Source: Trichodesmium erythraeum IMS101
GTDB lineage: Bacteria > Cyanobacteriota > Cyanobacteriia > Cyanobacteriales > Microcoleaceae
Direction of reading: 5' to 3'
NCBI RefSeq assembly: GCF_000014265.1
Contig: NC_008312.1
Span: 7,350,001 to 7,382,000, forward strand
DNA length: 32,000 nucleotides
The notes under the pieces were generated by a model. The model saw only the letters and a list, made by a program, of their open reading frames with translations. It did not search any database and was not told the origin of the DNA. Below, piece by piece: positions 2,883 to 32,000 of this stretch. Position 1 is the first letter of the stretch. Every line of letters starts with the position of its first letter. Made by a program: the position numbers and the translations under genes.

Positions 2883-5186
2883 TCAAAAATGAATTCTAAT
2901 GGGCAGCATCCCTGTATCTAACAATAATACTCGCCCAATAATTCTAGTTTCAAAATACTCCTGTTGTAGCGCATTCAAACAAGCACTCGCTAAATTAGCT
3001 GGCACTGTAGCAAGCAACCCACCAGAAGTTTGCGGGTCAAACAACAGAGGATAAAGAGGATACATACTCGCTTGTTCACGATTTTGAATTGATGCAGACA
3101 TTTGCAAATTTCCCGGATAAAGAGAACTAAAAATACCTTGTTCCAAAGTTTCAGCTACACCTGGCAACACAGGAATAGCTTCCATATCCAATTCCACGCC
3201 CACTCTTTGCCCTTTTAACATTTCCAACAAATGTCCGACTAATCCAAATCCAGTCACATCCGTACAAGCAGTAACACCATACTCTAATAATAACTGTGCA
3301 GCATTCTGATTAGAACCCAACATTGACTTAATAGCACTTTCAATCCAACGCCCCCTTGCCTTCAGACGCATATCTGCAGCAAATAACGTCCCTGTTCCCA
3401 AAGCTTTCGTTAATATCAGCATATCCCCCGGTTGCATCCCTCCCTTGTACAATAGTTTTTTTTGTGACACTAAACCATTACAGGTGAGACCAAAAGCCAG
3501 CTCTTCTCCCTCTGTTGTATGACCACCTATCAGAACAGCACCAGATTGATTCAAAACTTCCGTTGCTCCCAATAACAATTGATATAAAGTATCCTCCTGT
3601 TTACTTGGGGCAGCGTAGGGAATAGTAGCGATCGCTAACCCACTCTGAGCCATTGCCCCCATAGCAAATAAATCACTCAAACAATGATTAGCCGTAATTT
3701 TTCCCAACAAATAGGGGTCATCAAGCAACCCTCGAAAATAATCGATCGTCTGTACCATTACCCTATCCGCTGGTACCCTAATCACTGCAGCATCATCAGG
3801 TGTATCCATACCAATCAAAATATCATCCCTCCTGATTTCCTGTGGAATTTTATGCAGCACATTTTCCAAAACCCTACTAGTAACTTTTGCTCCACAACCA
3901 GCACAGTACATTTGGGAATCTTGTTTTCTGTCTTCTGCCTTCTGCGTTCTGTCTTCCATTTTTAGATTAGAGAATTGAGCCATAAATTTACGGTCAATGC
4001 GGTTTTTCCAACGCCAAAGTAACTTATGAGGACCAAAACCTATTCTGCCACGGGAAGCGATCGCCCGTTCATCACCAGTACCAATTAAAATCAAGAACTT
4101 TTTCTGAGGTATAAATGACTTCAGCAATTTTTTCTTAAGAGCCCGTTGTAGATTTTCAAACAAAGGTTGTCCCTGTCGCACCGCAAACACTCCAGCTTTG
4201 GGGCGAGAATGATTGATTATTGTTGCCACATCTCCGGCCGCAAAGACTTGAGGATGAGAAATTGACTGTAATTTCTCATTAACCAAAACAAAACCTCTGG
4301 TATCTGTTGCCAAACCTGCTTTTTGTAACCAAGGAGAGGCCGATGCTTGAGTCACCCAAAACAGAATATCACACTCTATTTCCAACCCTGAAGCACAACA
4401 AATCATTTTGAGAGTAGAGTATAAAGAATGGAATGTTTTATTTCCCTCTACATTCGTGGGAAGCTCCTGGTCATCACCCCTAACCTCCTCAACACTTTCC
4501 TTTAAATGCAATAGCACACCGCGACTTTTAAGAATTTTCTCAACTTCCTTTCCTACCCAATGATGACGCTGTGGTAATAATCTCTTCCCTCTATGAAATA
4601 GATGCAATTCCAAATTATCAGTAGGTTGTTTAGCATTGCGATAAATCTGATGGAGATGACTTTGAACCGCGAAAGCTAACTCTACCCCCCCAGCACCACC
4701 ACCCACTATTGCGATCCGCGTTTTCTGTGTTGGAGATTTGGAAATCATTGTAGTTATTTTATCCCAATAGGTGAGAAATTTTGATATTGGTTTAACCGCA
4801 ATAGCATATTCTATTGCCCCCGGTACAGTTAAACTAGCGGGAGTGCTACCAATATCAATAGAAAGTAAATCGAAATTTACAGGGGGACGACTAGTGCAAA
4901 GTATCTGATTTTTCTCCAGGTCTAGACCTATAGCGTGGCTTAAAAATATTCTAGCCCCAGCAAATTTGGCGAGGGGGAGTAGATCTATGTGACATTGATC
5001 GAAGTTGTATAAACCTGCCACATATCCTGGTAACATTCCAGAGTAAGGAGTGTGATATACATCTGTGATTAGGGTTAGTCTAACCCCTGGTATAGGGTTC
5101 ATGGCAAATTTTCGGAGAGCGATCGCATGGCTATGACCGCCTCCTATTAGGACTAAATCTGTTTTTGGTGGTATAGGGAATTTCAT
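2883..5186 (-). CDS. selD: Bifunctional pyridine nucleotide-disulfide oxidoreductase (N-terminal-to-SelD family) / selenide, water dikinase SelD
   Basis: 767-aa ORF with ATG start. The N-terminal half has two Rossmann dinucleotide motifs (LIGGGHSH, IVGGGAGGVELA). The C-terminal half has the SelD active-site loop YCAGCGAKV (Cys, not Sec) and an AIR-synthase-like fold (GGHT, DVTGFGL). The domains are joined by a short EDR-rich linker. Confidence 0.9.
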   Translation of the reverse strand: MKFPIPPKTDLVLIGGGHSHAIALRKFAMNPIPGVRLTLITDVYHTPYSGMLPGYVAGLYNFDQCHIDLLPLAKFAGARIFLSHAIGLDLEKNQILCTSRPPVNFDLLSIDIGSTPASLTVPGAIEYAIAVKPISKFLTYWDKITTMISKSPTQKTRIAIVGGGAGGVELAFAVQSHLHQIYRNAKQPTDNLELHLFHRGKRLLPQRHHWVGKEVEKILKSRGVLLHLKESVEEVRGDDQELPTNVEGNKTFHSLYSTLKMICCASGLEIECDILFWVTQASASPWLQKAGLATDTRGFVLVNEKLQSISHPQVFAAGDVATIINHSRPKAGVFAVRQGQPLFENLQRALKKKLLKSFIPQKKFLILIGTGDERAIASRGRIGFGPHKLLWRWKNRIDRKFMAQFSNLKMEDRTQKAEDRKQDSQMYCAGCGAKVTSRVLENVLHKIPQEIRRDDILIGMDTPDDAAVIRVPADRVMVQTIDYFRGLLDDPYLLGKITANHCLSDLFAMGAMAQSGLAIATIPYAAPSKQEDTLYQLLLGATEVLNQSGAVLIGGHTTEGEELAFGLTCNGLVSQKKLLYKGGMQPGDMLILTKALGTGTLFAADMRLKARGRWIESAIKSMLGSNQNAAQLLLEYGVTACTDVTGFGLVGHLLEMLKGQRVGVELDMEAIPVLPGVAETLEQGIFSSLYPGNLQMSASIQNREQASMYPLYPLLFDPQTSGGLLATVPANLASACLNALQQEYFETRIIGRVLLLDTGMLPIRIHF

Positions 5187-5869: not shown

Positions 5870-7288
5870 ATGTTAGATTGGATTTCTGCTAATTTTTCTA
5901 ATTTATTAAAAAATATAGATGCTATCATTTTTTATAGTATAGGAGGAGAGCAAGGCCTACCAATTATTGTACTGTGGCTCATTAGTGGTGCTCTCTTTTT
6001 TACTATCCGAATGCAGTTTATTAATCTTCGCGCCTTTAAACATGCTGTAGATGTTGTTTTGGGCAAATACGATGACAAGAATGAGGAAGGAGAAGTTTCC
6101 CACTTTGAAGCTCTCGCTACTGCCCTATCTGGTACCGTAGGGCTAGGAAATATTGCTGGAGTTGCTATTGCTATTAGTGTAGGAGGACCGGGTGCAGCTT
6201 TTTGGATGACCCTCGCAGGTTTTTTAGGGATGAGTACTAAATTTATTGAGTGTAGCCTAGCTCAAAAATATCGCATTTTTCACCCCAATGGTACAGTTAC
6301 TGGAGGACCAATGTATTACCTGTCAATAGGCTTGGCCGATATAGGGCAAAAAAAATTAGGTCAAATTCTAGCAGTAATGTTCGCATTTTTAAACATTTTG
6401 GCGACATTGGGTAGTTCTAGTATATTTCAGTCTAATCAATCTCAAGTTGTTGTTGCCAATATACTACCATTTGTTGCCGAAAAAACTTGGATCTATGGAT
6501 TGCTTTTAGTATTAATAGTAGGATTAGTAATTATTGGAGGTATCCAACGTATCGCTGCAGTAGCTGCTGCTATAGTACCTGCAATGTGTGGCATCTATTT
6601 TTTGGCAGGTTTATGGGTGATTTTATCTAACTTTACGGCTATTCCTAATGCCTTAGCTAGTATTCTTCACAGTGCTTTTATTCCCCAAGCTATGGTAGGT
6701 GGTTTTGCTGGAGCCTTAGTACAAGGGTTCCGTCGCGCAGCTTTTTCTAATGAAGCAGGGTTGGGAGTGGCAGCGATCGCTCATGCTACAGCCAAAACTG
6801 ATGAACCTATTCGGGAAGGTATTGTCGCATTACTAGAACCATTTATTGATACTATCATCATCTGCAACATCACTGCTTTAGTAGTAATTATTACTGGAGC
6901 TTACAATAATCCAGAATTTGCCAATTTTGGTGGTTCTGAACTAACTTTAGCCGCTTTTGCTTCTGTGATTACCTGGTTTCCTTCTCTTTTGACACTATGT
7001 ATATTTTTATTTGCCTTATCTACTATAATTTCTAGTAGTTATTATGGTCAAGTTTCCTGGCAATATTTATTTGGAGACCGGAGTGTAATTATATATAAAA
7101 TTTTATTCTTAATAAGTATTTTTCTTGGTACAGTTATTCAACCAGAAACAGTAATTAAATTCGCTGACTCTCTAAAAATAGCTCTCGCTTTTCCTAGTTT
7201 ACTTGGGGCTTACTTCCTCTCTAATAAAATCGCCAATGACCTCAAAAATTATATGAAACGTTTACAAACAGGAGAAATAAGTTCATAA
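5870..7288 (+). CDS. Alanine/glycine:cation symporter (AGCS) family transporter, paralog 1
   Basis: 472 aa, ATG start, polytopic. Family motifs GEVSHFEALATALSGTVGLGNIAGVA, FSNEAGLG and DEPIREG. Confidence 0.9.
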   Translation: MLDWISANFSNLLKNIDAIIFYSIGGEQGLPIIVLWLISGALFFTIRMQFINLRAFKHAVDVVLGKYDDKNEEGEVSHFEALATALSGTVGLGNIAGVAIAISVGGPGAAFWMTLAGFLGMSTKFIECSLAQKYRIFHPNGTVTGGPMYYLSIGLADIGQKKLGQILAVMFAFLNILATLGSSSIFQSNQSQVVVANILPFVAEKTWIYGLLLVLIVGLVIIGGIQRIAAVAAAIVPAMCGIYFLAGLWVILSNFTAIPNALASILHSAFIPQAMVGGFAGALVQGFRRAAFSNEAGLGVAAIAHATAKTDEPIREGIVALLEPFIDTIIICNITALVVIITGAYNNPEFANFGGSELTLAAFASVITWFPSLLTLCIFLFALSTIISSSYYGQVSWQYLFGDRSVIIYKILFLISIFLGTVIQPETVIKFADSLKIALAFPSLLGAYFLSNKIANDLKNYMKRLQTGEISS

Positions 7289-7522
7289 AATTAATACTTT
7301 TATTTTTTATTTTTCAGGATGAGTAAATCCTCAAAACAACAAAGGTTTAATACCATTTATTTTTTTTTAATGATAAATATTTTGAGAACATTTTTTTCTA
7401 AAAACGTTTTTAAAATTTTTCCTAATCCTGAAAGTGATTCAATGAAATTGCTAAACAGACAAAATTATACTTTTATGGTATATGTATTTAATTAAGAAAA
7501 TAATTTATTGGTAAAGTTGAAA

Positions 7523-9022
7523 ATGAAAAGACAAACTTGGCTATATATACTCCTATTGATATTAACACCAACTGTTGTTTTAGCAACACAACCAGAACAA
7601 GGAGATAGTCTCATAAACATCATCGATCAAGCTTTTTCGAGTTTTGTAGATGTAATATTTAACATCCTCTTCTTTAGTATCGGTGGTTTTCCTTTAATTA
7701 TTTTATGGCTAATTATTGGCGCATTTTTTTTTACTATTAGGATGCAATTTATTAATATTCGTGCTTTTACACACGCCATTGAGATCCTTAGAGGTAAATA
7801 TGATGATCCCGAAGCTCAAGGAGAAGTTTCACATTTTCAAGCTTTAGCAACAGCATTATCAGGAACAGTAGGATTAGGAAATATCGCTGGTGTAGCTGTA
7901 GCAGTGAGTATGGGGGGAGCTGGTGCTGTCTTCTGGATGACGATCGCTGGTTTTTTTGGGATGACTAGTAAATTTATAGAATGTACCCTGGCTCAAAAAT
8001 ATCGCATTGTTAAACCTGATGGCACTATTTCTGGTGGGCCGATGCGCTACCTATCCGCAGGTTTAGCAGAAATGGGGCAGGGAACCTTAGGCAAAGTTCT
8101 CGCTGTATTATTTTCTATCTTCTGTATTTCTGCTGCTTTTGGTGGTGCTAATATGTTTCAGGCAAACCAGTCTTATGGCGCCGTTTCAAATGTATTACCA
8201 GGTTTACCTAGTTGGGTTTATGGCTTAGTGCTAGTAGTTTTGGTCGGATTAGTTATTATTGGTGGTATTCAGCGTATTGGTATGGTGGCAGGTACTCTTG
8301 TACCTTTAATGTGTCTGCTCTATGTTTTGGCTTGCCTATTTATTCTTCTGGCTAATTTTACCCAAATTCCAGGAGCGATCGCTACTATTATTTCTGGTGC
8401 TTTTGCCCCCCAAGCAGTAGAGGGTGGGATTACTGGTGTAATTATTCAGGGATTTCAACGTTCGGCTTTTTCTAATGAAGCTGGTGTCGGTTCCGCAGCG
8501 ATCGCTCACTCTGCTGCTAGAACTGATGAACCTATTCGTGAAGGCTTAGTCGCCCTGTTAGAACCATTTATTGATACTATTGTGGTTTGCAATATGACCG
8601 CTTTGGTAATTGTTATTACTAAGGTATATAATGCTGAAGAATTCTCTGCTTTGCGGGAAGCAAATAAAGGGGCAGAATTAACTTCTGCAGCTTTTGGTAC
8701 TGTTTTGGCATGGTTTCCAGTTCTATTAGCGATCGCTGTTTTCTGTTTTGCGTTTTCTACCATGATTTCTTGGAGTTACTACGGCGAACGTTGTTGGGAT
8801 TATTTATCTGATGGTAAGGGATTAATTATTTACAAAATATTGTTTTTGATTGCTACTTTTGTCGGTTCAGTATCTAACCCATCCTCTGTAATTAATTTTA
8901 GTGATGCTACTCTACTTTCAATGGCTTTTCCTAATATTTTGGGTGGGTATTTTTTGTGTAGTCCAGTAGCAAAGGATTTGCAAAATTATATGGAGCGTCT
9001 TAGAACAGGAGCCTTGACTTAA
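7523..9022 (+). CDS. Alanine/glycine:cation symporter (AGCS) family transporter, paralog 2, with an N-terminal signal-like extension
   Basis: Same motifs as paralog 1 (GEVSHFQALATALSGTVGLGNIAGVA, FSNEAGVG, DEPIREG). The ORF track begins at TTG 7508; the in-frame ATG at 7523 (MKRQTWLYILLLILTP..) is the more likely start. Confidence 0.9.
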   Translation: MKRQTWLYILLLILTPTVVLATQPEQGDSLINIIDQAFSSFVDVIFNILFFSIGGFPLIILWLIIGAFFFTIRMQFINIRAFTHAIEILRGKYDDPEAQGEVSHFQALATALSGTVGLGNIAGVAVAVSMGGAGAVFWMTIAGFFGMTSKFIECTLAQKYRIVKPDGTISGGPMRYLSAGLAEMGQGTLGKVLAVLFSIFCISAAFGGANMFQANQSYGAVSNVLPGLPSWVYGLVLVVLVGLVIIGGIQRIGMVAGTLVPLMCLLYVLACLFILLANFTQIPGAIATIISGAFAPQAVEGGITGVIIQGFQRSAFSNEAGVGSAAIAHSAARTDEPIREGLVALLEPFIDTIVVCNMTALVIVITKVYNAEEFSALREANKGAELTSAAFGTVLAWFPVLLAIAVFCFAFSTMISWSYYGERCWDYLSDGKGLIIYKILFLIATFVGSVSNPSSVINFSDATLLSMAFPNILGGYFLCSPVAKDLQNYMERLRTGALT

Positions 9023-10769: not shown

Positions 10770-11261
10770 TTAAAAACCTAAAGCTGCACGAGTACGAGGT
10801 CCAACAATACCATCTGCCCTTAAGCCAACATCCCGTTGGAATGCTTTAACTGCATACTTAGTCTTATGGCCAAAATAACCAGTTGCACGAGGATGATGAA
10901 AATATCCCATAAGTCCTAGTTGATGTTGCAACTTAGCAACCCTGTGTCCACGGCTACCATGGTGAAGATAATATCCATGACCATGGCGGTGACGACGATA
11001 AGAAGCATGACGATAGTGTGGACGACCATAGCGCCGACCTAAGCCACTACCATAACGATAATTAGGACTACCGCAGCGAGAGTAGCAATTAGCAGCAGCA
11101 GAATCAGCAGTTACGCTAAGAGAACTTAAAATAGTAGCGACTGATAGCAGACCCATCATCCCTAAGCTGGAAAACTTTTTCCAGTCGACTGCTTTCAACG
11201 TGGGTTCAACTATAAAACTTTCTTCGGTGGTAGCTAGATGAGAATATGCTAGTGTTTCCAT
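10770..11261 (-). CDS. Secreted peptidoglycan-binding (PG_binding_1) domain protein with a basic Arg/His/Tyr-rich spacer
   Basis: 163 aa, ATG start. The C-terminus VAKLQHQLGLMGYF...KYAVKAFQRDVGLRADGIVGPRTRAAL matches the PG_binding_1 helical repeat. The N-terminal 57 residues (METLAYSHLA...GMMGLLSVATIL..VTADSAAA) are shared with the neighbouring gene. Confidence 0.75.
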   Translation of the reverse strand: METLAYSHLATTEESFIVEPTLKAVDWKKFSSLGMMGLLSVATILSSLSVTADSAAANCYSRCGSPNYRYGSGLGRRYGRPHYRHASYRRHRHGHGYYLHHGSRGHRVAKLQHQLGLMGYFHHPRATGYFGHKTKYAVKAFQRDVGLRADGIVGPRTRAALGF

Positions 11262-11509: not shown

Positions 11510-11908
11510 TTAGTAGCAGCCACCGTAGCCACCGTAGCCACCACCGTAGCCACCATAGCGACTACCATAGCCACGAGAACCACCGTAGTTACCATAATTA
11601 CCATAGGAACGATTGTAGGAACTACTAACAACTTTTTTATAGTAGTGACCAGAATTACGACCATAGTTACCATGGTTACCATAGTTACTACCATAGCCAC
11701 CGTAGTCACCGTAGCCACCATAACCATAACCACCATAAGCAGAAGCAGAATCAGCAGTTACGCCCATTGCTCCGAATACAGTAGCAGCAGACAGTAAACC
11801 CATTGCACCAACGCTAGATAGTTTTTTAAAGTCTACACAAACAGTAAACTCTTGATTCTCTGAATTTTCTGCGCTATAGGCTAAATGGGAAAATGCTAAT
11901 GTTTCCAT
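11510..11908 (-). CDS. Secreted Gly/Tyr-rich low-complexity protein, paralogous leader to the 10770-11261 gene
   Basis: 132 aa, ATG start. The N-terminal module METLAFSHLA...GAMGLLSAATVF..VTADSASA aligns in the same register (residues 1-57) as the neighbour. The remainder is GYG/NYG repeats ending in GGCY. Confidence 0.6.
   Translation of the reverse strand: METLAFSHLAYSAENSENQEFTVCVDFKKLSSVGAMGLLSAATVFGAMGVTADSASAYGGYGYGGYGDYGGYGSNYGNHGNYGRNSGHYYKKVVSSSYNRSYGNYGNYGGSRGYGSRYGGYGGGYGGYGGCY
11513..11737. repeat. Short-period coding repeat (GGYGG-type, about 9-bp units such as ggctacggt)
   Basis: The plus strand reads ccaccgtagccaccgtagccaccaccgtagccaccatagc... The same periodicity creates the spurious alternative-frame ORF 11497-11736. 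Confidence 0.8.
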
Positions 11909-15442: not shown

Positions 15443-16729
15443 TTATCTAGACATCTTTTGCACTTCACTAAAAACTCTCATTAAGTTTTTACCCCAAATT
15501 TTTTGAATATCTTTTTCAGTATATCCCCGTGCCATTAATTATTTTGTATTTTGTAATATTGGGTATTTGTGAAACATCATTCATTCCAAATACTCCACCA
15601 TCCCTATCTAAATCTAAAACAATAGCAACATGATTAATACTTATAACTTTTACCATGTAATCTATATGGTCTACTACATCAGCAACAGTGGGTTAATTTT
15701 TCAGATATTTCTTATTAATTTGACAATATTTTTCTTTGAGTACTTTTGTTTGTTCTTGGCTTAGTTTTCCATTTTTAAATGCAGCAAGTTTTTGTTCAAT
15801 TTATTTCATTGCTGTTTTTATTTATGGTATTTCCGGGATTTTTTTAATATAGTCATCAAAAATACAATTTTGTACAACTACATCATTTTATTTGACAATT
15901 TTTAAAATTTAATTACTCATATTTTAGGATTTTTTTTCTAGTTATCTAGCACTAGAATGAGATGCAATTACTGGTGCTTTTATTAACTTAATTAAATCCA
16001 AAAATGTATAATTATAGACATGATAAATATCAACCATGATACCCAAAATATTTATTTCTTTGATAACTTTTTTCCCATGGTAACTTAAGCCATTCCATTT
16101 TTGTTTTTGATATGTAGAAGAATCACCAAGCTCATTATTTTGGGTATGAGTTATTATTTTATATCTAATCCCTTGGTGATAGAAAAATTGAACATTACTA
16201 ATATCTTTACCAATTGGATAAGCATTTTCCATGCCCATAAATATTGCCATTTTTATAATTTTATCTAGCAGTTCAGCATCCTGTGCATTTAAGGCAAGTA
16301 AAATTTAAAAAAAATTGAACTCAACCATCTTTTTTGTTATTTTAATCATTTTAATTACTTCCTCTTTTCTCCGCTGATGTTCTTCTTTATTCCTCTATTT
16401 TTGAATAGTAAATATTGACGTAAATACAGCATATAGGCCACTTTCCTCAATTCGAGTAATATCTGACTGACTAATATCAATTCCTCCAGGTTGATGTCTG
16501 ATATTTGGTTGAAAATCAGGATATAAAAATTGATGATAAAGCAAATCAATATGACCGTTAACTGTTAAAAAAAATCGTGTATTTCTTCAGGAGTTAATAC
16601 TTTTTGTAACTGATATTGACTTACTTTAGGAGATGATAGTAATTGTTTCTTCGAGATAGTACATCCATTTACTGTAAAAGAAAGTAAAACTATTGGCAAT
16701 GATAAGACTAGATTTTTTGATAAGTTCAT
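15443..16729 (-). pseudogene. Membrane dipeptidase (peptidase M19) pseudogene
   Basis: Fragments in different frames on the minus strand: N-terminal lipoprotein-like MNLSKNLVLSLPIVLLSFTVNGC; then GHIDLLYHQF; then GMENAYPIGKD..GIRY.ITHTQNNELGDSS..GLSYHGKKVIKEINILGIMVDI.HV...TFLDLIKLIKAPVIASHSSAR (15942-16250); then a C-terminal ARGYTEKDIQKIWGKNLMRVFSEVQ. All are interrupted by multiple stops and frameshifts. Confidence 0.8.
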
Positions 16730-26965: not shown

Positions 26966-28209
26966 ATAGATCATTTGATATCAAAAATTAAGCTACTCTA
27001 GGCTAATATTTCTAACAATAGGACAGAATATATTGCAACTAATGGGTAATTTAAATCTGTAGTATAGTTTAATCTGAAAGCAGATTAAAAATTGAATTAT
27101 TTTACACTATAATTAAGTGATTAAAGGCAAGCAAAGTCTGTAAATTTCGTCTCAATCAATAAAAATTATATAGTCTGTGTTATATTAGTCTGGAATTTAA
27201 AAAAAAATTAGTACTAAAAATAGAAAAAACTATTGATCAAGTGAAACATAAATTATTCTCAGATTATCTGATAAAGAGTGCAAGAGCGGAAAAAGAACAC
27301 AATAAAATTTAGGGCTATTTCTTTTATATAGGTATTTTTATTACTATTAAATGAATGGAAAAAATATTGAGGCGATCGCTTAAAAATTTATTAATAAAAA
27401 GTAAGTCTTGAAAAACCCAATACGGGAGATTTTCTTGCAACTAATGTTTGAGATATACAAAAATTAACTGAAAAAAAATCCTCTCTAAATATAAATAGGA
27501 ACAATAGCTCTAACAAGGTTTGATAATTCTAAAATATCCGATATAATTAAGCTTGATAATGCCTTTCTAACATCTCCAAAAATAAATGAAGCCTTTGGGA
27601 TTAATAATGGGTTAATATTTACTGGTTGATACCATCAGAAAACAATAACTTAGGCAAACTTTAAAAGGCATGAAAACTGGGGTAAAAAAACAGTAGTGTC
27701 GTCTGACAGATAGACCAAATATACAATAGATCTTTCAATGTTTTCAATCCATTCATGTCTTATATGTTCAGGGGTTAAAACAGATATCTAATTTAACCAA
27801 TTAAAATTGTATTTATCAAAGTTTTTTCCCGTGTTTTTTTTAGGGTTATTATCTAGGAGAAATAATGTTTTTTTTCCAGTTATTTTTGAATCAACTAATC
27901 TTAAATTTAATGGAGTTTTACTCCGACTTAAACCGATTTTATTTGTTTGAAAAGTTTTTTTTCGACCTCACCTAAATCACCTTTTATTTTGAATGTTTTA
28001 GTCATAGCAATTTTTCTTTGTTACCAGTATTAATACTTAATCAATTGCTATTTCTCTCTTATACTATCTATTTACTATATTCTATTTACTATATTTTGAA
28101 GTGGGGAATGGGAGTTATTTCTTATTCAAAACTCAAAAAAATTGTCTGTAGGGATTTAGTGATAAAATCCCTACCTAGAGAACAAAAAAGCTACAAGAAG
28201 CCAAAAAAA

Positions 28210-28687
28210 TTAAGACATTGCTTGAATAATATAGTCAAAATAAGGAGCAGTTTCCTTAGCATCCTCTTCATCAAGTAAAGAAAGACTTGCTTCCTTTAAA
28301 CAACGAATCGACTCTACCATTCCAGGAACCGGTACACCAAGAGAGTTATACATTTCCCGAACACCTATCAAACCAATACTTTCAATAGGATCTTTATCCC
28401 CAGCTAATAGCCCATAAGTAATCAAACGCAGGTACCAACCATAGTCACGAAGACATAAAGCACGTTCGCGTTGACCAAAAGCATTACCACCAGGGGCAAT
28501 AAAATCTGGACGCCTGCGCCATAAGTCCTGACTAGCTTTGTCCACAATTTTTTTTTCATTTTCAGAAAGCAATGTAGCAATTTTAACACGCTGCTCACCT
28601 GTTTTCAAAAAAGTATTTATGGCTTCAAGTTCCCCACTACTGGGGTAACGTAATTCATCATCTGCTTTGAGAATAACTTGACTAACT
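28210..28687 (-). CDS. apcD: Allophycocyanin alpha-B subunit ApcD, exon 2 (codon 3 position 3 through the stop)
   Basis: Translation (V)[97 protein letters not shown]...[12 protein letters not shown] is ApcD-like along its whole length. This frame has no start codon. Joined to 31312-31319 it gives a 161-aa protein. Confidence 0.9.
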
Positions 28688-28691
28688 GTTA

Positions 28692-28726
28692 AACTAAGCC
28701 AGATAAGTCACCCTACCCGACTTGTC
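28692..28726 (-). ncRNA. Group II intron domain VI with branch-point adenosine
   Basis: Minus strand: GAC-AAGUC-GGGUAGG-[GUGA]-CUUAUCU-GGCUU-(A)-GUU. This is a continuous helix with a GNRA tetraloop. The unpaired A at 28695 lies 7 nt from the 3' splice site. Confidence 0.75.
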
Positions 28727-30708
28727 TTCAGAACCGGACATGAAACTTTCGCTTCATCCGGCTCCTCTGTTAGAGGTCCCAATTCAAGGGTACATCCCTG
28801 CTTTAGTGTCAGCATATCGTTAACCCATAAGTAACATTCAGGTAAGTCCTGTGAATTGCCTATTAGATAGCTCTTGTGATTTAAAGCAATGTTAGTCTCG
28901 TGGCAATATTGGTGCAACAATTGTTTATTCCTTAGTATGTTGTCACCACCTTTAAACTTAGGTATTACATAGTTTACCTCTATTAGGTCAGTTACTCTAA
29001 AGGTCAATCCACAAAATGCACATTTATTCTTCTGACTTTTGAATAATTTTGAAGTCTCTGTTTTTACCCCTGAATATTTGCCAACTCTGCTAGTCCAATA
29101 ATTCCAGTCACCATCTAGTGTTAAGTTATTATCTTTTACTTTGATGTCTCCTATGATGGGAACATCAGAGTATTGATTTAGCATATATTCGCCCCGCGGG
29201 AGAATCCAATTTCCATTCTCAATATTCGGGAAATACTCTTGTTTAACCCAGGTGGCTGAATTGTTTGGATGCTGTCTACTTGCGCAACACCATAGTCTCT
29301 TCCACAGAAGCATATCCAGTTTGTTGAATATTTTATTAGTACTTACTTGTGTTGAGAAATAGTTAACCCATCCACTGATAGCTGGATTAAGTTTAGCAAT
29401 TAATCCTTTGACTGGTGCAATTTTGTATGAATCAAATCTTTCTGCCAGTTTCCGGTAATGAGTTTTAATACTTCTAGCGGACAATTTAATCAGGGTTTGA
29501 AATCCAAGTTTTGCTATCTTTGCCTGACCTTGCCTCATTGTGAATCCGAAGAAGTCCAATCCAGGCTTGTTCCCTTTATACTCTTCTAGAGCGTTGGCAA
29601 TTCTGGTCAATTCTTGTTTTAATTCTAATCTTACCTGGTTTAACCATTCCTGCATTACGGTTTTTGCTTGCAGTAGTACTTTGATATCTTCCTGTAGAAT
29701 TACGAACTCATCTACATAGTCTACTAGAATTAGACTTTGACATTTCGATTGCCAGCTCATTTGAGCACCCTTTTTATTTTTCAAATCTAGGGTTTTGGCA
29801 AACTCCATTAGTCTTTTCTCTATACCGTGTAAGGTGATGTTTGCTAGCAGAGGACTCATTACCTCTCCCTGTGCTGTATCCAACTCAACCAACCCACATC
29901 TATTTCCGAGAAGGAAGCTGTCGGGGTAGGTGAATAGGAGCTGTTGGGGTGGGTAGAATTGATTATTGTCTAAAACTCTAGACTTTAAACATTGTTTGAT
30001 TAGTCGTCTGTAGGATGATTTCTTAATTTTTCCTAGCAGTGCATCATGGTTAATTAGATCAAATAGATCAAAACATTTGGATATATCAACATCAAGAAAG
30101 TATTTAGATTTATTCTTGATGCTGGTAAAGATGATTTCAATAGCATCATTGGTTGATCGTCCTAGTCCCAAACCATAACTATTAGGTTCAAAGCGTTTCT
30201 CCCACTCTGGTTCCATACTTAGCTTGACCGAGCCCTGTAATGCTCGGTCGTACATTGTTGGGATGCTTAAGGAAAATTTTGCATTTAACCCTTGCTTTAG
30301 TATTGAGACTCTAGGGTTTAGAATGGCTTTCAGGGAATGTGATTTGAGTAGGTACACAAAATTAAAACGTTGCATTGGTGGTAGATTTTTAATACCATCT
30401 ACCCCGACGGTGTTTTTAACTTGATTATCCTGTCTCACCCATCTAACAGTTAGCAACAAAGGGTAATAACTTTTGGTCAGAAGTTTTTGGTATCTAGGCA
30501 TCTTGCGAATTTTGCCACAGCTGGATGCTCTGTAAATTAACTTTTGCAACTTAAATACATTCTTCATAGCCCGCCTCCAGTCTATGTCTCTCCATTTAAG
30601 AGTTAGATTGATACTAACTTGAGACGGTATATCCTCTGTATCCCATGCCACACTTAAAAATGGTTGAGGGTTTCCTAAGTTTCTTTTTAGTGTTTTAGCT
30701 TTATTCAT
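28708..30708 (-). CDS. Group II intron-encoded protein (RT / maturase X / HNH domains) with substituted catalytic motifs
   Basis: 666-aa open frame. RT blocks: TVGVDGI, IPTMYDRALQ, EPEWEKRFEPNSYGLGLGRS, DVDISKCFD(LFD)LINHDALL, AQGEVMSPLLANITLHG, YVDEFVIL. X-domain block LNPAISGWVNYFS. Zinc-finger/HNH block CAFCG...IEVNYVIP..GGD...LLHQYCHE. The open frame runs on through domain V and stops at the UGA in the domain VI tetraloop. Confidence 0.9.
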   Translation of the reverse strand: MNKAKTLKRNLGNPQPFLSVAWDTEDIPSQVSINLTLKWRDIDWRRAMKNVFKLQKLIYRASSCGKIRKMPRYQKLLTKSYYPLLLTVRWVRQDNQVKNTVGVDGIKNLPPMQRFNFVYLLKSHSLKAILNPRVSILKQGLNAKFSLSIPTMYDRALQGSVKLSMEPEWEKRFEPNSYGLGLGRSTNDAIEIIFTSIKNKSKYFLDVDISKCFDLFDLINHDALLGKIKKSSYRRLIKQCLKSRVLDNNQFYPPQQLLFTYPDSFLLGNRCGLVELDTAQGEVMSPLLANITLHGIEKRLMEFAKTLDLKNKKGAQMSWQSKCQSLILVDYVDEFVILQEDIKVLLQAKTVMQEWLNQVRLELKQELTRIANALEEYKGNKPGLDFFGFTMRQGQAKIAKLGFQTLIKLSARSIKTHYRKLAERFDSYKIAPVKGLIAKLNPAISGWVNYFSTQVSTNKIFNKLDMLLWKRLWCCASRQHPNNSATWVKQEYFPNIENGNWILPRGEYMLNQYSDVPIIGDIKVKDNNLTLDGDWNYWTSRVGKYSGVKTETSKLFKSQKNKCAFCGLTFRVTDLIEVNYVIPKFKGGDNILRNKQLLHQYCHETNIALNHKSYLIGNSQDLPECYLWVNDMLTLKQGCTLELGPLTEEPDEAKVSCPVLKTSRVG
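28731..28764 (-). ncRNA. Group II intron domain V
   Basis: Minus strand: GAGCCGGAUGAAGC-GAAA-GUUUCAUGUCCGGUUC. It has the AGC catalytic triad, a two-helix stem with a 3'-side bulge, and a GAAA tetraloop. Confidence 0.85.
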
Positions 30709-31311
30709 TGCTAATCATTGCTTTACATTACGTCTAACAGTGGGTACGTCTGCTAATCTTGCTTCTTACCCAATCCTGCTCTCTCTAAGACCTACGACTA
30801 ACTGTGTAGATTGACCTTGAATGGCTTCCTAAGTTCTCGACCTATAATTTATTCTTAGGTGTCTTAGAGAGTTTTTCTCGTTCCCTTATGCCTTTATTAC
30901 GACTGATTTAGTGGGGTAAAATCTCCCGGAGGGTTTTATTTGGTTGTTGATAACTCCGAGCATATAAAGTTATCCATAATTCCTCTGACATAATGTCTTT
31001 CACTCCATAGCTACCTTTGGAATGGTCTAATTTAACGAGAGTTTGATTACCTTCCTGTTCGTCCACTTGTCAGTCTCTGCTTGGAGTCTCACTTATTTGG
31101 TAGTTAAAGCTTTGACCCCGTTTAGGCCAGCTTCAGGGATTGATGTTCAGTCTCTACCCTGTGGCCTATGCTGTCAACCTAACAACAAGGCGAGAGGAAT
31201 TACACCTCTAAGATCATAAGAGTTATACACAAGTCGGAGGTTGTCCTCATGTATTGACTTGGGGTGGCCATTTATAGCCTGTTTCATGGTTTAGTGGCCA
31301 ACGAGTCGCAC

Positions 31312-31319
31312 ACACTCAT
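31312..31319 (-). CDS. apcD: apcD exon 1 (ATGAGTGT: Met-Ser-Va..)
   Basis: The minus strand reads aataattATGAGTGT|GTGCGAC. The 8 nt before the intron's GUGCG join exon 2 (A GTT AGT CAA GTT ATT CTC) to give MSVVSQVIL, the canonical ApcD start. Confidence 0.8.
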
Positions 31320-31866
31320 AATTATTGATTTTTTTTAGAGTTATATTTCATTTTGAGTATAGAATATAAATGAGTTTCTAGTCTAATTCTTATTCTTAAC
31401 TTTAAAGTTTCTGTTATACTCTCCGCGACAGGGATAAAGAATGTAACCTCAAAATAATATTAATATTACTCAAAAATTTGCTTGTGCTTTGAAAGCTTTC
31501 CGCGCCCATGGCATAACTTTTTAGTTGTTTTTTTTGAGTAAATATGTTATTTGATTTATTAATTTATTTAGTCTGGTCGTGGGGGAACAGTTACCAAACA
31601 AAAAACGGACGCGCCAGGGAAGTTTAATCAAGCTCTATCCCCTAACTATCTATTCTATCTCTCCTCTCATGGGTTCCCGTGGGTGCAGTGTCTGGTAAAA
31701 CGTCTACTTGTCGCAGGAGTTTCACCTCGGTATAATTCCCCTCAATAAAAATAGCCAGGGAAGATGTAAAAAGCAATTGTTAGAGATAGACTAAAAATAA
31801 TTACTCATGGGGAAAATGAAAAACTTTTAAGATAAGATTGACTTAGTGAAAAGGGATTATTAAAAA

Positions 31867-32000
31867 TTGGTCACATCATTTTGGCAACAAGGTCAGCTAG
31901 TAGAAATAACTATCACGGATTTAACAGATAGTGGTGATGGAGTGGGTCGTTATGATGAAAAAGTGGTATTTGTGCCTAATACAGTTTCTGGCGATCGTCT
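31867..32000 (+). CDS. RlmD/RumA-like 23S rRNA (uracil-C5)-methyltransferase, 5' partial (TRAM domain), runs off the window
   Basis: Open frame from TTG 31867, with a stop immediately upstream: VTSFWQQGQLVEITITDLTDSGDGVGRYDEKVVFVPNTVSGDR. This is the typical N-terminal TRAM-domain pattern of the family. Confidence 0.6.
   Translation, partial: MVTSFWQQGQLVEITITDLTDSGDGVGRYDEKVVFVPNTVSGDR

What the first reader, a model, noticed from the sequence alone, without database searches (positions are those of the whole stretch)
28210..31319. apcD is split after its 8th nucleotide by a sense-oriented group II intron
The ApcD-like frame at 28210-28687 has no start codon. On the same strand 2.6 kb upstream, ATGAGTGT is followed directly by GTGCGAC, the group II 5' consensus GUGYG.

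The 3' side carries three canonical elements:
- a textbook domain V (GAGCCGGAUGAAGC GAAA GUUUCAUGUCCGGUUC)
- a domain VI helix with a GUGA tetraloop and a bulged A 7 nt from the end
- a terminal ...AAC (consensus AY)

Joining 31312-31319 to 28687 downward gives ATG AGT GT|A GTT AGT CAA GTT ATT CTC, which reads MSVVSQVIL. The product is 161 aa, the usual ApcD length and N-terminus.

Bacterial group II introns usually avoid conserved protein-coding genes. Host-gene interruptions are known in a few cyanobacteria (for example Trichodesmium), so this may not be unprecedented. It does make a phycobilisome terminal-emitter gene dependent on RNA splicing. The insertion only 8 nt into the CDS also separates the start codon and RBS from the body of the gene.
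Basis: partly seen in the sequence, partly recalled or inferred. Interest (0 to 1): 0.8.

Follow-up and report, generated by a model that had tools for sequence, protein, structure and literature searches.

The report
Known group II intron splitting apcD

Summary
Observation confirmed and interpretation supported, but already known. The window is Trichodesmium erythraeum IMS101-type DNA.

- **Anatomy (minus strand).** Exon 1 is ATGAGTGT (31319-31312). A 2624-nt group II intron follows (31311-28688). Exon 2 is 28687-28210.
- **RNA evidence.** Rfam places domains V/VI so that they end exactly at 28688.
- **Empty site.** Two public contigs with 100% identical flanks lack exactly these 2624 nt and read ATGAGTGT|AGTTAGTC. 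They encode a 161-aa ApcD with the family N-terminus MSVVSQVI.
- **Comparative test.** Related introns in three other insertion sites show covarying EBS1-IBS1 pairing. The D1-D3 fold has 27 compensated pairs.
- **Prior publication.** Pfreundt et al. 2014 (Sci Rep 4:6187) reported this intron as Tery_4799. They found 337 split RNA-seq reads and northern bands for precursor, intermediates and mature mRNA. It had been predicted earlier in the group II intron database.
- **Modest additions here.** The intron-encoded protein has lost the RT YADD motif (now YVDE) and the HNH catalytic His (DH to NY). Its RT core evolves near neutrally (dN/dS about 0.93). The ribozyme is almost invariant across 12 natural copies. 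IBS1/IBS2 overlap the start codon. Public annotation still gives a wrong 164-aa ApcD that starts inside intron domain VI.

The parts
31320..31324 (-). IBS2 (UAAUU, exon positions -13..-9), immediately upstream of the start codon
   Evidence: Complementary to the EBS2 candidate AAUUA. The same exon offset and alignment columns pair in 3 of 4 related introns.
31312..31319 (-). apcD exon 1: ATGAGTGT (start codon plus 5 nt). IBS1 is GAGUGU at 31317-31312.
   Evidence: Contiguous with exon 2 in L001/L002. The published 5' exon has its own TSS (PMC4143802).
28688..31311 (-). Group II intron, 2624 nt, GUGCGAC...UUUAAC
   Evidence: Exactly this segment is missing from L001/L002, whose flanks are 100% identical. 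Rfam D5/D6 hits. Published as the Tery_4799 intron.
30709..31311 (-). Ribozyme domains I-III and the 5' strand of domain IV (603 nt)
   Evidence: MFE -162 kcal/mol, z=-4.7. The consensus fold with 3 related introns has 163 pairs, 27 of them compensated, against 13.5+/-2.4 in shuffles and 1-6 in slid controls. Only 2 of 603 columns vary among 12 natural copies.
31028..31032 (-). EBS2 candidate (AAUUA, intron nt 280-284)
   Evidence: It lies in one of the few variable patches of an otherwise about 86-90% identical ribozyme alignment.
30958..30963 (-). EBS1 (AUGCUC, intron nt 349-354), in the terminal loop of a domain I hairpin
   Evidence: Pairs 6/6 with IBS1 GAGUGU, including 2 G.U pairs. The homologous loop positions in three related introns pair 6/6 with their own exons and 0-5/6 with the others. 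The flanking stem shows compensatory changes (helix 22).
28708..30708 (-). Intron-encoded protein ORF, 666 aa, identical to ABG53751.1/WP_011614065.1 of T. erythraeum IMS101. It reads through domain V and stops in domain VI.
   Evidence: Pfam RVT_N, RVT_1, GIIM and HNH. Best solved relative is the T.el4h maturase/RT 6ME0_C, E=3e-64. Identity to P0243.
29707..29718 (-). RT motif 5 degenerated: YVDE instead of YADD
   Evidence: The second Asp is D in 103 of 117 homologues, and the preceding R, Y, A and D are each conserved in 113-116 of 117. All 11 full-length natural alleles of the apcD copy have YVDE.
28960..28980 (-). HNH motif degenerated: EVNYVIP instead of EVDHIxP
   Evidence: D-H is conserved in 102 of 117 homologues, and it aligns to the HH of the T.el4h protein.
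30055..30072 (-). 9-nt tandem duplication (TTTGATCTA x2) that inserts LFD into RT motif 3
   Evidence: Absent from the orthologous intron in L006 and from the 663-aa alleles.
28731..28764 (-). Domain V (34 nt, GAAA loop)
   Evidence: RF04357 60.7 bits and RF00029 57.1 bits.
28691..28727 (-). Domain VI, with the bulged branch-point A at 28695. 3' splice site follows AAC at 28688.
   Evidence: RF00029 alignment and sequence.
28210..28687 (-). apcD exon 2 (codon 3, position 3, through the stop codon)
   Evidence: The spliced product is 100% identical to P0001.
28210..28704 (-). Publicly annotated 164-aa 'ApcD' ORF (MWLSLT...), with a non-canonical ATC start inside domain VI. This is an annotation artefact.
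   Evidence: P0003 on the 7,750,108-nt contig. Gene call in L003. Translation check.

Best explanation
This is the apcD (Tery_4799) group II intron of Trichodesmium erythraeum. The gene is transcribed from a promoter upstream of the 8-nt first exon. The 2624-nt intron folds into a six-domain IIB-type ribozyme.

EBS1 (AUGCUC) and EBS2 (AAUUA) in domain I hold the 5' exon through IBS1 (GAGUGU) and IBS2 (UAAUU). The bulged A of domain VI (28695) attacks the 5' splice site. The exons are then ligated to ATG AGT GT|A GTT..., which gives the mRNA for a normal 161-aa allophycocyanin-B alpha subunit.

- **Shown here or published:** the boundaries, the ribozyme elements, the exon pairings, and splicing in vivo.
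- **Inferred:** the intron is now an immobile, host-fixed element. Its encoded protein has lost the RT and endonuclease catalytic residues, and its RT core drifts near neutrally. Splicing therefore relies on the ribozyme, plus either a residual RNA-binding/maturase function of this protein or maturases supplied in trans by the many paralogous introns in the genome.
For: - **RNA models.** Rfam D5/D6 hits end exactly at the 3' splice site.
- **Protein domains.** The IEP has RVT_N, RVT_1, GIIM and HNH, and the spliced product is a full-length Phycobilisome-family protein.
- **Empty site.** L001/L002 have 0 mismatches over 689+6478 nt of flank and lack exactly 31311-28688.
- **N-terminus.** Of 120 homologues, 117 are 161 aa, and 112 begin MSVVSQVI or MTVVSQVI.
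- **Exon pairing.** EBS1/IBS1 pair 6/6 in each of four related introns with four different exons. EBS2/IBS2 pair 5/5 in three of the four.
- **D1-D3 covariation.** 27 compensated pairs, with 0 of 500 shuffles reaching the observed values.
- **Ribozyme constraint.** 2 of 603 columns vary across 12 natural copies, against 22 of 681 upstream and 59 of 920 in IEP codons 128-433.
- **Published splicing.** 337 split reads and a northern blot showing precursor, intermediates and mature mRNA (PMC4143802).
- **IEP decay.** YADD is replaced by YVDE and DH by NY. dN/dS is 0.93, with 24 non-synonymous and 7 synonymous changes. The protein retains only 73-86% of family-invariant residues in every domain, below the minimum of 73 other members in four of the five domains, X included.
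- **Trans-acting maturases.** Their action in T. erythraeum is reported in the literature (Meng et al. 2005, as cited in PMC4143802 and PMC4649490).
Against: - No Rfam D1-D4 model matches at E<=1.
- Subclass assignment (IIB, chloroplast-like) rests only on the nearest solved relative and on the EBS layout. It was not checked against the curated intron database.
- The IEP ORF is still intact in all 11 full-length natural alleles. Its first 127 codons are nearly invariant. Some protein function, probably RNA binding or maturase, may still be selected, and complete loss of RT activity is not demonstrated.
- dN/dS comes from one pairwise comparison with a MAG contig and 31 substitutions.
- Whether L001/L002 are genomic DNA or RNA-derived is unknown.
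Confidence: 0.97

Rival explanations
1. apcD is a pseudogene inactivated by a dead retroelement insertion, and no functional ApcD is made from this locus.
For: The IEP has lost its RT and HNH catalytic residues and drifts near neutrally. The window contains another decayed gene, the M19 peptidase fragments.
Against: The ribozyme is almost invariant across natural copies (2 of 603 columns). The EBS/IBS pairings are intact. The exon 2 reading frame is intact, and the joined exons are 100% identical to a contiguous 161-aa ApcD. Published split reads and northern data show mature mRNA.
Confidence: 0.01
2. The protein is made without splicing, from the annotated 164-aa ORF that starts at ATC 28704 inside intron domain VI (MWLSLTVSQ...).
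For: This is how public annotation calls the gene (P0003).
Against: ATC is a non-canonical start. None of the other 119 close homologues has this N-terminus. The start lies inside the conserved D6 helix. Spliced mRNA is observed. The paper itself states that the annotation lacked the 5' exon and part of the 3' exon.
Confidence: 0.02
3. The intron is still a fully mobile retroelement, with an active RT and endonuclease, that happens to sit in apcD.
For: The 666-aa ORF is intact, with all four domains recognisable. It is intact in 11 natural alleles. YVDE keeps one Asp and has a conservative D to E change.
Against: The exact IEP and the domain I ORF are found only in the apcD context, in every contig read. 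The RT5 and HNH catalytic positions differ from those of more than 100 homologues. dN/dS is 0.93. The protein is the most divergent family member in most domains. A 9-nt duplication sits in RT motif 3.
Confidence: 0.12
4. The intron-less contigs L001/L002 come from genomic DNA of a T. erythraeum strain that lacks the intron, through polymorphism or recent precise loss. On this view they are not assemblies of spliced RNA.
For: The contigs are 15 kb and 4.4 kb, span genes on both strands, and pass through the junction without a break. No Logan contig carrying the complete IEP was returned.
Against: The flanks have 0 mismatches to the intron-containing genome over 7.1 kb. Natural intron-containing copies differ from it at 3-45 sites per 2.6 kb, and all carry the intron. 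An intron-less genome would therefore have to be nested inside an intron-containing clade. The allele occurs only in raw-run (Logan) assemblies and in no deposited genome. Most of the Trichodesmium genome is transcribed (PMC4143802 abstract).
Confidence: 0.3

Closest known systems
Tery_4799 (apcD) group II intron of Trichodesmium erythraeum IMS101 (Pfreundt et al. 2014, Sci Rep 4:6187, Fig. 5 and Table 2; listed earlier in the bacterial group II intron database)
   Same: It is the same object. The IEP is identical to ABG53751.1 of IMS101. [quoted passage not shown]
   Different: Nothing differs in kind. The paper sections I read do not mention the degenerate YADD/HNH motifs, the near-neutral drift of the RT core or the EBS/IBS assignment. 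I did not read its supplement or the intron database entry.
T.el4h group IIB intron and its maturase/RT from Thermosynechococcus (PDB 6ME0/6MEC)
   Same: It is the closest solved relative of the IEP, at E=3e-64 and aligned over residues 34-605, with the same RT-X-D-En order. It is a cyanobacterial intron that uses EBS1/EBS2-type exon recognition.
   Different: T.el4h keeps YADD and the HNH histidines and is an active retroelement. The apcD IEP has YVDE and NY, extra insertions, and a tail that reads through domain V.
Other host-gene introns of T. erythraeum (dnaN, nrdJ, thyX, gvpA, lysozymes), with maturases acting in trans (Meng, Wang and Liu 2005, as cited in PMC4143802 and PMC4649490)
   Same: Same genome and the same unusual habit of interrupting conserved protein-coding genes. 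Splicing has been verified in vivo. Ten of the 17 lack an ORF and need factors supplied in trans.
   Different: The apcD intron still carries a full-length ORF. Dependence on a trans-acting maturase is only inferred here.
Organellar group II introns with degenerate maturases (for example plastid trnK/matK), and phycobiliprotein genes split by group II introns in red-algal plastids (from my own knowledge, not checked here)
   Same: An immobile intron fixed in an essential or photosynthetic gene, a conserved ribozyme, and an IEP that has lost RT/En function. Domain V scores best against plastid D5 models (RF04357, RF04336).
   Different: This is a free-living bacterium. The IEP still has recognisable RT and HNH domains and is at a much earlier stage of decay than matK.

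Membership tests
Group II intron (ribozyme) | 5' end GUGYG | tested here: met
   GUGCGAC at 31311-31305. The first 25 intron nucleotides are nearly identical in three related introns.
Group II intron (ribozyme) | Domain V: a 34-nt hairpin with the catalytic AGC triad, a 2-nt bulge and a GNRA loop | tested here: met
   RF04357 scores 60.7 bits (gathering 53) and RF00029 scores 57.1 bits (gathering 40) at 28767-28688.
Group II intron (ribozyme) | Domain VI with a bulged branch-point A 7-8 nt from the 3' end, and a 3' terminal AY | tested here: met
   The bulged A is at 28695 and the intron ends AAC at 28688. The basal D6 and the terminal GCUUAGUUUAAC are conserved in L005, L009 and L011.
Group II intron (ribozyme) | EBS1/EBS2 in domain I base-pair with IBS1/IBS2 at the end of the 5' exon | tested here: met
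   EBS1 pairs 6/6 in all four introns, each with a different exon. Cross-pairings score 0-5/6. EBS2 pairs 5/5 with exon -13..-9 in three of the four.
Group II intron (ribozyme) | Conserved multi-helix domains I-III | tested here: met
   The consensus fold has 163 pairs with 97.7% of cells paired. 27 pairs are compensated, against 13.5+/-2.4 in shuffles and 1-6 in slid controls. Caveats: only 4 sequences, and the structure was derived from the same alignment.
Group II intron (ribozyme) | Match to a curated D1-D4 covariance model (Rfam group-II-D1D4 families) | tested here: not met
   No such family matched at E<=1 in 28600-31400. I read this as a gap in model coverage for this lineage, because the comparative fold is supported.
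Group II intron (ribozyme) | Precise excision and exon ligation in vivo | not testable with these tools
   Published: 337 split reads and a northern blot (PMC4143802). Consistent here with the exact empty-site contigs L001/L002, whose origin as RNA or DNA is unknown.
Subgroup IIB / chloroplast-like lineage | IIB-type D1 features (a stem-less EBS2, EBS3 in the coordination loop, epsilon'/lambda motifs) and an IEP of the CL clade | tested here: inconclusive
   The nearest solved IEP is T.el4h and D5 scores best on plastid D5 models. EBS2 lies in an internal loop about 70 nt 5' of EBS1. IBS3 is A in all four related introns whose 3' junction was read, so EBS3 shows no covariation. No curated class assignment was available.
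Mobile group II intron IEP (RT-maturase-endonuclease) | Domain order RT0/RT, X (maturase), D, En (HNH) | tested here: met
   Pfam RVT_N 39-118, RVT_1 138-390, GIIM 414-493 and HNH 563-605.
Mobile group II intron IEP (RT-maturase-endonuclease) | RT catalytic motif YADD | tested here: not met
   The motif is YVDE at residues 331-334. The second Asp is D in 103 of 117 homologues, and the preceding R, Y, A and D are each conserved in 113-116 of 117. All 11 natural alleles have YVDE.
Mobile group II intron IEP (RT-maturase-endonuclease) | HNH catalytic His (EVDHI motif) | tested here: not met
   The motif is EVNYVIP at residues 577-583. D-H is conserved in 102 of 117 homologues and aligns to the HH of 6ME0_C.
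Allophycocyanin-B alpha subunit (ApcD) | Full-length phycobiliprotein globin fold, about 161 aa, the conserved N-terminus and the chromophore Cys (ALCLRD) | tested here: met
   PF00502 scores 216 bits over 6-160 of 155 profile positions. Identity to ApcD of Okeania, Dapis and other Trichodesmium is 93-94%. Sources name these proteins 'allophycocyanin subunit alpha-B'. The Cys in ...[10 protein letters not shown]... is seen directly in the sequence.

The most novel reading that the evidence does not exclude
The apcD intron may be a bacterial snapshot of intron domestication. The ribozyme and the first 127 codons of the ORF are almost frozen. The RT core of the encoded protein has lost YADD and the HNH His. 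It drifts at or above the intergenic rate, with dN/dS about 0.93. The element would then be immobile, and its splicing would depend on a residual RNA-binding/maturase function or on paralogous maturases supplied in trans. This is the organelle-like condition arising in a free-living cyanobacterium.

A corollary follows from the fact that IBS2 and IBS1 (31324-31312) cover the AUG. Ribosome loading and 5'-exon recognition on the pre-mRNA could be mutually exclusive, which would offer a point of regulation.
Probability: 0.4. Interest if true: 0.35.

Novelty: already known. Interest (0 to 1): 0.15.

Why it matters
Group II introns inside conserved bacterial protein-coding genes are rare. Trichodesmium is the best-known exception, and apcD is its published showcase example, so the finding adds no new biology.

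It still has three uses:
- It shows that a tool-free reading can recover a correct intron and exon structure.
- It shows that public annotation still carries a wrong ApcD N-terminus.
- The apcD intron may be a convenient system for asking how a mobile intron becomes a host-dependent one. Its ribozyme is frozen and its IEP is decaying.

Tried and rejected
1. **Rfam permissive search.** An E-value-mode search of 28600-31400 for D1-D4 families returned only D5/D6 models.
2. **First EBS1 guess.** I first took ACAUU at intron nt 316-320. I rejected it because the homologous segment in relatives is a closed GAAA-capped hairpin. The true EBS1 has two G.U pairs, and my first filter of at most one G.U missed it.
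3. **Genome-contig scan with the IEP.** It returned a single relative, L005. The source genome itself did not appear in that collection.
4. **Metagenome-contig scan.** I used a degenerate pattern covering both the spliced and unspliced 5' junction. It gave 0 hits.
5. **P0148 lookup.** This paralogous IEP of IMS101 has no record.
6. **Literature search for the two SRA run numbers.** It found no papers. A lookup of the domain I ORF found 62 blocks, but the short Logan contigs were not among those read. Whether L001/L002 are RNA or DNA therefore stays open.
7. **Promoter and terminator scan of 28000-32000.** Promoter-like sites are not above chance (11 found, 11.6 expected) and there are no terminator-like sites. 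I make no promoter claim.
8. **'Only RT and En decay while the maturase X domain is preserved'.** This is not supported. The X domain retains 82% of family-invariant residues, similar to RT at 79%. Polymorphism in X (5 of 80 columns) is not significantly lower than in RT (24 of 263 columns).
9. **L009.** It could not be used for D1-D3 because it is a twintron whose outer 5' part lies outside the locus.


Full report
**What the window is.** The neighbouring genes are those of a cyanobacterial chromosome. They include SAM hydroxide adenosyltransferase, a SelD-like fusion, two Na:Ala symporters, an ABC exporter, BtpA, PsbU, DUF3120 and BacA. GC content is about 33%, with long non-coding stretches. 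The intron-encoded protein is residue-for-residue identical to ABG53751.1/WP_011614065.1 of Trichodesmium erythraeum IMS101, and also to that of strain GBRTRLIN201. The locally annotated ApcD (P0003) sits on a 7,750,108-nt contig. That contig length also carries a protein that its source names as T. erythraeum IMS101.

**Checking the observation.**
- ATGAGTGT at 31319-31312, followed directly by GTGCGAC.
- A 34-nt domain V at 28764-28731.
- Domain VI at 28727-28691, with a GUGA loop and a bulged A at 28695.
- An intron end of AAC at 28688.
- An ApcD reading frame from 28687 to the stop at 28210 that has no conventional start at its N-terminus.

Rfam confirms the RNA part well above chance. RF00029 scores 57.1 bits (gathering 40) over 28766-28688 and ends exactly on the predicted 3' splice site. 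RF04357, a plastid D5 model, scores 60.7 bits. The 666-aa ORF at 30708-28708 has RVT_N, RVT_1, GIIM and HNH domains. The joined exons give a 161-aa protein with an end-to-end Phycobilisome match of 216 bits. Of the 120 closest homologues, 117 are 161 aa long, and 112 begin MSVVSQVI or MTVVSQVI.

**Independent boundary test.** A protein 100% identical to the predicted spliced product exists as a contiguous gene (P0001) on two public contigs, L001 and L002, in the same synteny. At the DNA level these contigs match the window with 0 mismatches over 689 nt upstream and 6478 nt downstream. They lack exactly 31311-28688 and read ...AATAATTATGAGTGT|AGTTAGTCAAG....

No Rfam D1-D4 family matches even at E<=1, so I tested the fold comparatively. 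The IEP belongs to a large family in Trichodesmium, Okeania and Dapis. I retrieved related introns from three other insertion sites: a Maf-like gene in Trichodesmium MAG_R04 (L005), an Okeania locus (L010) and a Dapis locus (L011).

Their D1-D3 regions are 86-90% identical to the apcD intron, except for two short patches. The first patch lies in the terminal loop of a hairpin. In each intron it is complementary to the last six nucleotides of that intron's own 5' exon:

| Intron | EBS1 | IBS1 |
|---|---|---|
| apcD | AUGCUC | GAGUGU |
| maf (L005) | CAUUAU | AUAAUG |
| Okeania (L010) | UUUGCG | CGUGAA |
| Dapis (L011) | GGUUAC | GUAAUU |

Each pairs 6/6 with its own exon and 0-5/6 with the others. 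The second patch pairs 5/5 with exon positions -13..-9 in three of the four, which identifies EBS2/IBS2. In apcD this is AAUUA at 31032-31028 pairing with UAAUU at 31324-31320.

The RNAalifold consensus has a multi-branched D1 followed by D2 and D3. It contains 163 pairs with 97.7% of cells paired. 27 pairs are kept through changes on both sides, against 13.5+/-2.4 in column shuffles (0 of 500 reach the observed value) and 1-6 when partners are slid by 1-3 columns. There are three caveats. Only four sequences were used. The structure was derived from the same alignment. One predicted helix, between the 5' GUGC and a D4 segment, is probably spurious. The single-sequence fold is also more stable than shuffles (z=-4.7).

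**Literature.** This exact intron is published. Pfreundt et al. [quoted passage not shown] It is the example in their Fig. 5. [quoted passage not shown] A northern blot shows precursor, splicing intermediates and mature mRNA. The authors note that the annotation lacked the 5' exon and part of the 3' exon. The follow-up paper (PMC4649490) places it among 17 introns that splice in vivo. Ten of those lack an ORF and presumably depend on trans-encoded maturases.

**Mechanism.**
- **Shown.** The boundaries, D5/D6, EBS1/2-IBS1/2, the conserved D1-D3 and in vivo splicing (published) are established. The intron therefore acts as a conventional branching group II ribozyme that restores codon 3 (GT|A), giving MSVVSQVIL....
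- **Seen directly in the sequence.** IBS2 and IBS1 (31324-31312) span the AUG. Translating the unspliced RNA from that AUG would give only an 11-residue peptide, MSVCDSLATKP.
- **Inferred.** The element is probably no longer mobile.

The evidence for immobility is as follows. In an alignment of 118 family members, the apcD copy has DYVDEF where 103-116 of the others have RYADDF. It has EVNYVIP where 102 have EVDHIxP, and the same substitutions appear against the T.el4h protein of PDB 6ME0. The IMS101 allele also carries a 9-nt tandem duplication in RT motif 3. The protein retains only 73-86% of positions that are at least 95% conserved in the family. That is below the minimum of 73 other full-length members in four of the five recognised domains (RT0, RT, X and the linker), X included. 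In the En domain one other member retains less.

Against an orthologous apcD intron in another Trichodesmium MAG (L006, 98.2% identical), there are 0 of 603 substitutions in the ribozyme. There are 31 substitutions plus an in-frame 9-nt indel in 1294 nt of ORF. Of these, 24 are non-synonymous and 7 synonymous, giving dN/dS of 0.93. Derived changes occur in both lineages at positions invariant in 117 homologues.

Twelve natural copies (Tara and other ocean metagenomes, and MAGs) all sit in apcD. Variable columns are distributed as follows:

| Region | Variable columns |
|---|---|
| Ribozyme D1-D3 | 2 of 603 |
| ORF codons 1-127 | 2 of 381 |
| ORF codons 128-433 | 59 of 920 |
| Upstream intergenic | 22 of 681 |

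The ORF remains open in all 11 full-length alleles, and all of them have YVDE and NY. I therefore infer loss of polymerase and endonuclease function. A residual RNA-binding or maturase role remains possible. Alternatively, splicing may rely on paralogous maturases, as documented for ORF-less introns of this organism. A specific 'X domain preserved' pattern is not supported.

**Distribution.** The intron is confined to the T. erythraeum clade. ApcD genes of other Trichodesmium lineages (P0015, P0022, P0035; L007 and L008), Okeania, Dapis and Hydrocoleum are contiguous. No second close apcD copy on the 7.75-Mb contig appeared among the 120 best hits.

**Open point.** L001/L002 could be genomic DNA of an intron-less strain, or assemblies of RNA-seq runs that captured the spliced mRNA. 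Their flanks are identical to IMS101, whereas every natural intron-containing copy differs at several sites. The allele is also seen only in raw-run assemblies. I therefore favour an RNA origin, at roughly 70:30. Neither the literature nor the look-ups could settle it.

**Verdict.** Novelty is 'already known' and interest is low. The residual points of interest are the decaying IEP beside a frozen ribozyme, the overlap of the exon-binding sites with the start codon, and the persistent mis-annotation of ApcD as a 164-aa protein starting at ATC 28704 inside domain VI.

Noticed in passing
window 28210-28704 (-): Public annotation (P0003, 'allophycocyanin subunit alpha-B', 164 aa, MWLSLT...) starts ApcD at a non-canonical ATC inside intron domain VI. 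The true 161-aa MSVVSQ... product is absent from deposited genomes of this clade.
   Followed up: yes
window 28708-28770 (-): The IEP ORF does not stop before domain V. It reads through D5 (...EEPDEAKVSCPVL...) and ends at a TGA in D6. The same read-through occurs in L009 and, by tblastn, in L005. In the Dapis relative L011 the ORF stops just before D5.
   Followed up: partly
window 29408-30327 versus 30328-31311 (-); loci L006, L012-L021: Among 12 natural copies, IEP codons 128-433 are more variable (59 of 920 columns) than the upstream intergenic DNA (22 of 681, p=0.004). The ribozyme and the first 127 codons are nearly invariant. Alleles P0248 and P0249 look like mosaics of two haplotypes. 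The cause is unresolved: relaxed constraint, recombination or MAG chimerism.
   Followed up: partly
L009:1237-1500 (GCA_049647275.1, Microcoleaceae MAG): Twintron. A second group II intron, with its own IEP and a D5 at L009:1404, is inserted just upstream of the IEP start codon of an intron of the same family as the apcD intron.
   Followed up: no
L005:1905-4436 (Trichodesmium sp. MAG_R04): A related intron (ribozyme about 90% identical) splits a Maf-like gene. It has a perfect EBS1-IBS1 match but no EBS2-IBS2 match. Its IEP keeps YADD, but the ORF is broken after 508 aa.
   Followed up: partly
window 15516-16250 (-): Fragments of a Peptidase_M19 (membrane dipeptidase) gene lie in 27-29% GC DNA. 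One 102-aa ORF covers profile positions 105-206 of 319. This is probably a decayed pseudogene.
   Followed up: no
window 10770-11261 and 11510-11908 (-): Two adjacent paralogous small ORFs share the N-terminus METLA[FY]SHLA and a hydrophobic segment. One ends in a PG_binding_1 domain. The other ends in a Gly/Tyr-rich tail encoded by 9-nt periodic repeats (GYG units) and has no Pfam match.
   Followed up: no
window 825-854/2184-2213; 2213-2278/2525-2590; 23602-23750/24214-24362: Repeats in long non-coding stretches. There is a 30-nt inverted pair 1.3 kb apart, a 66-nt direct repeat (89% identical) and a 149-nt direct repeat (79% identical). They may be remnants of mobile elements or repeated ncRNA loci, which are typical of this genome.
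   Followed up: no
window 5870-7288 and 7508-9022 (+); 2883-5186 (-): There are tandem paralogous Na:alanine symporter genes, about 73% identical over 300 nt. There is also a 767-aa fusion of a pyridine-nucleotide-disulphide oxidoreductase with AIRS/AIRS_C (SelD-like) domains.
   Followed up: no
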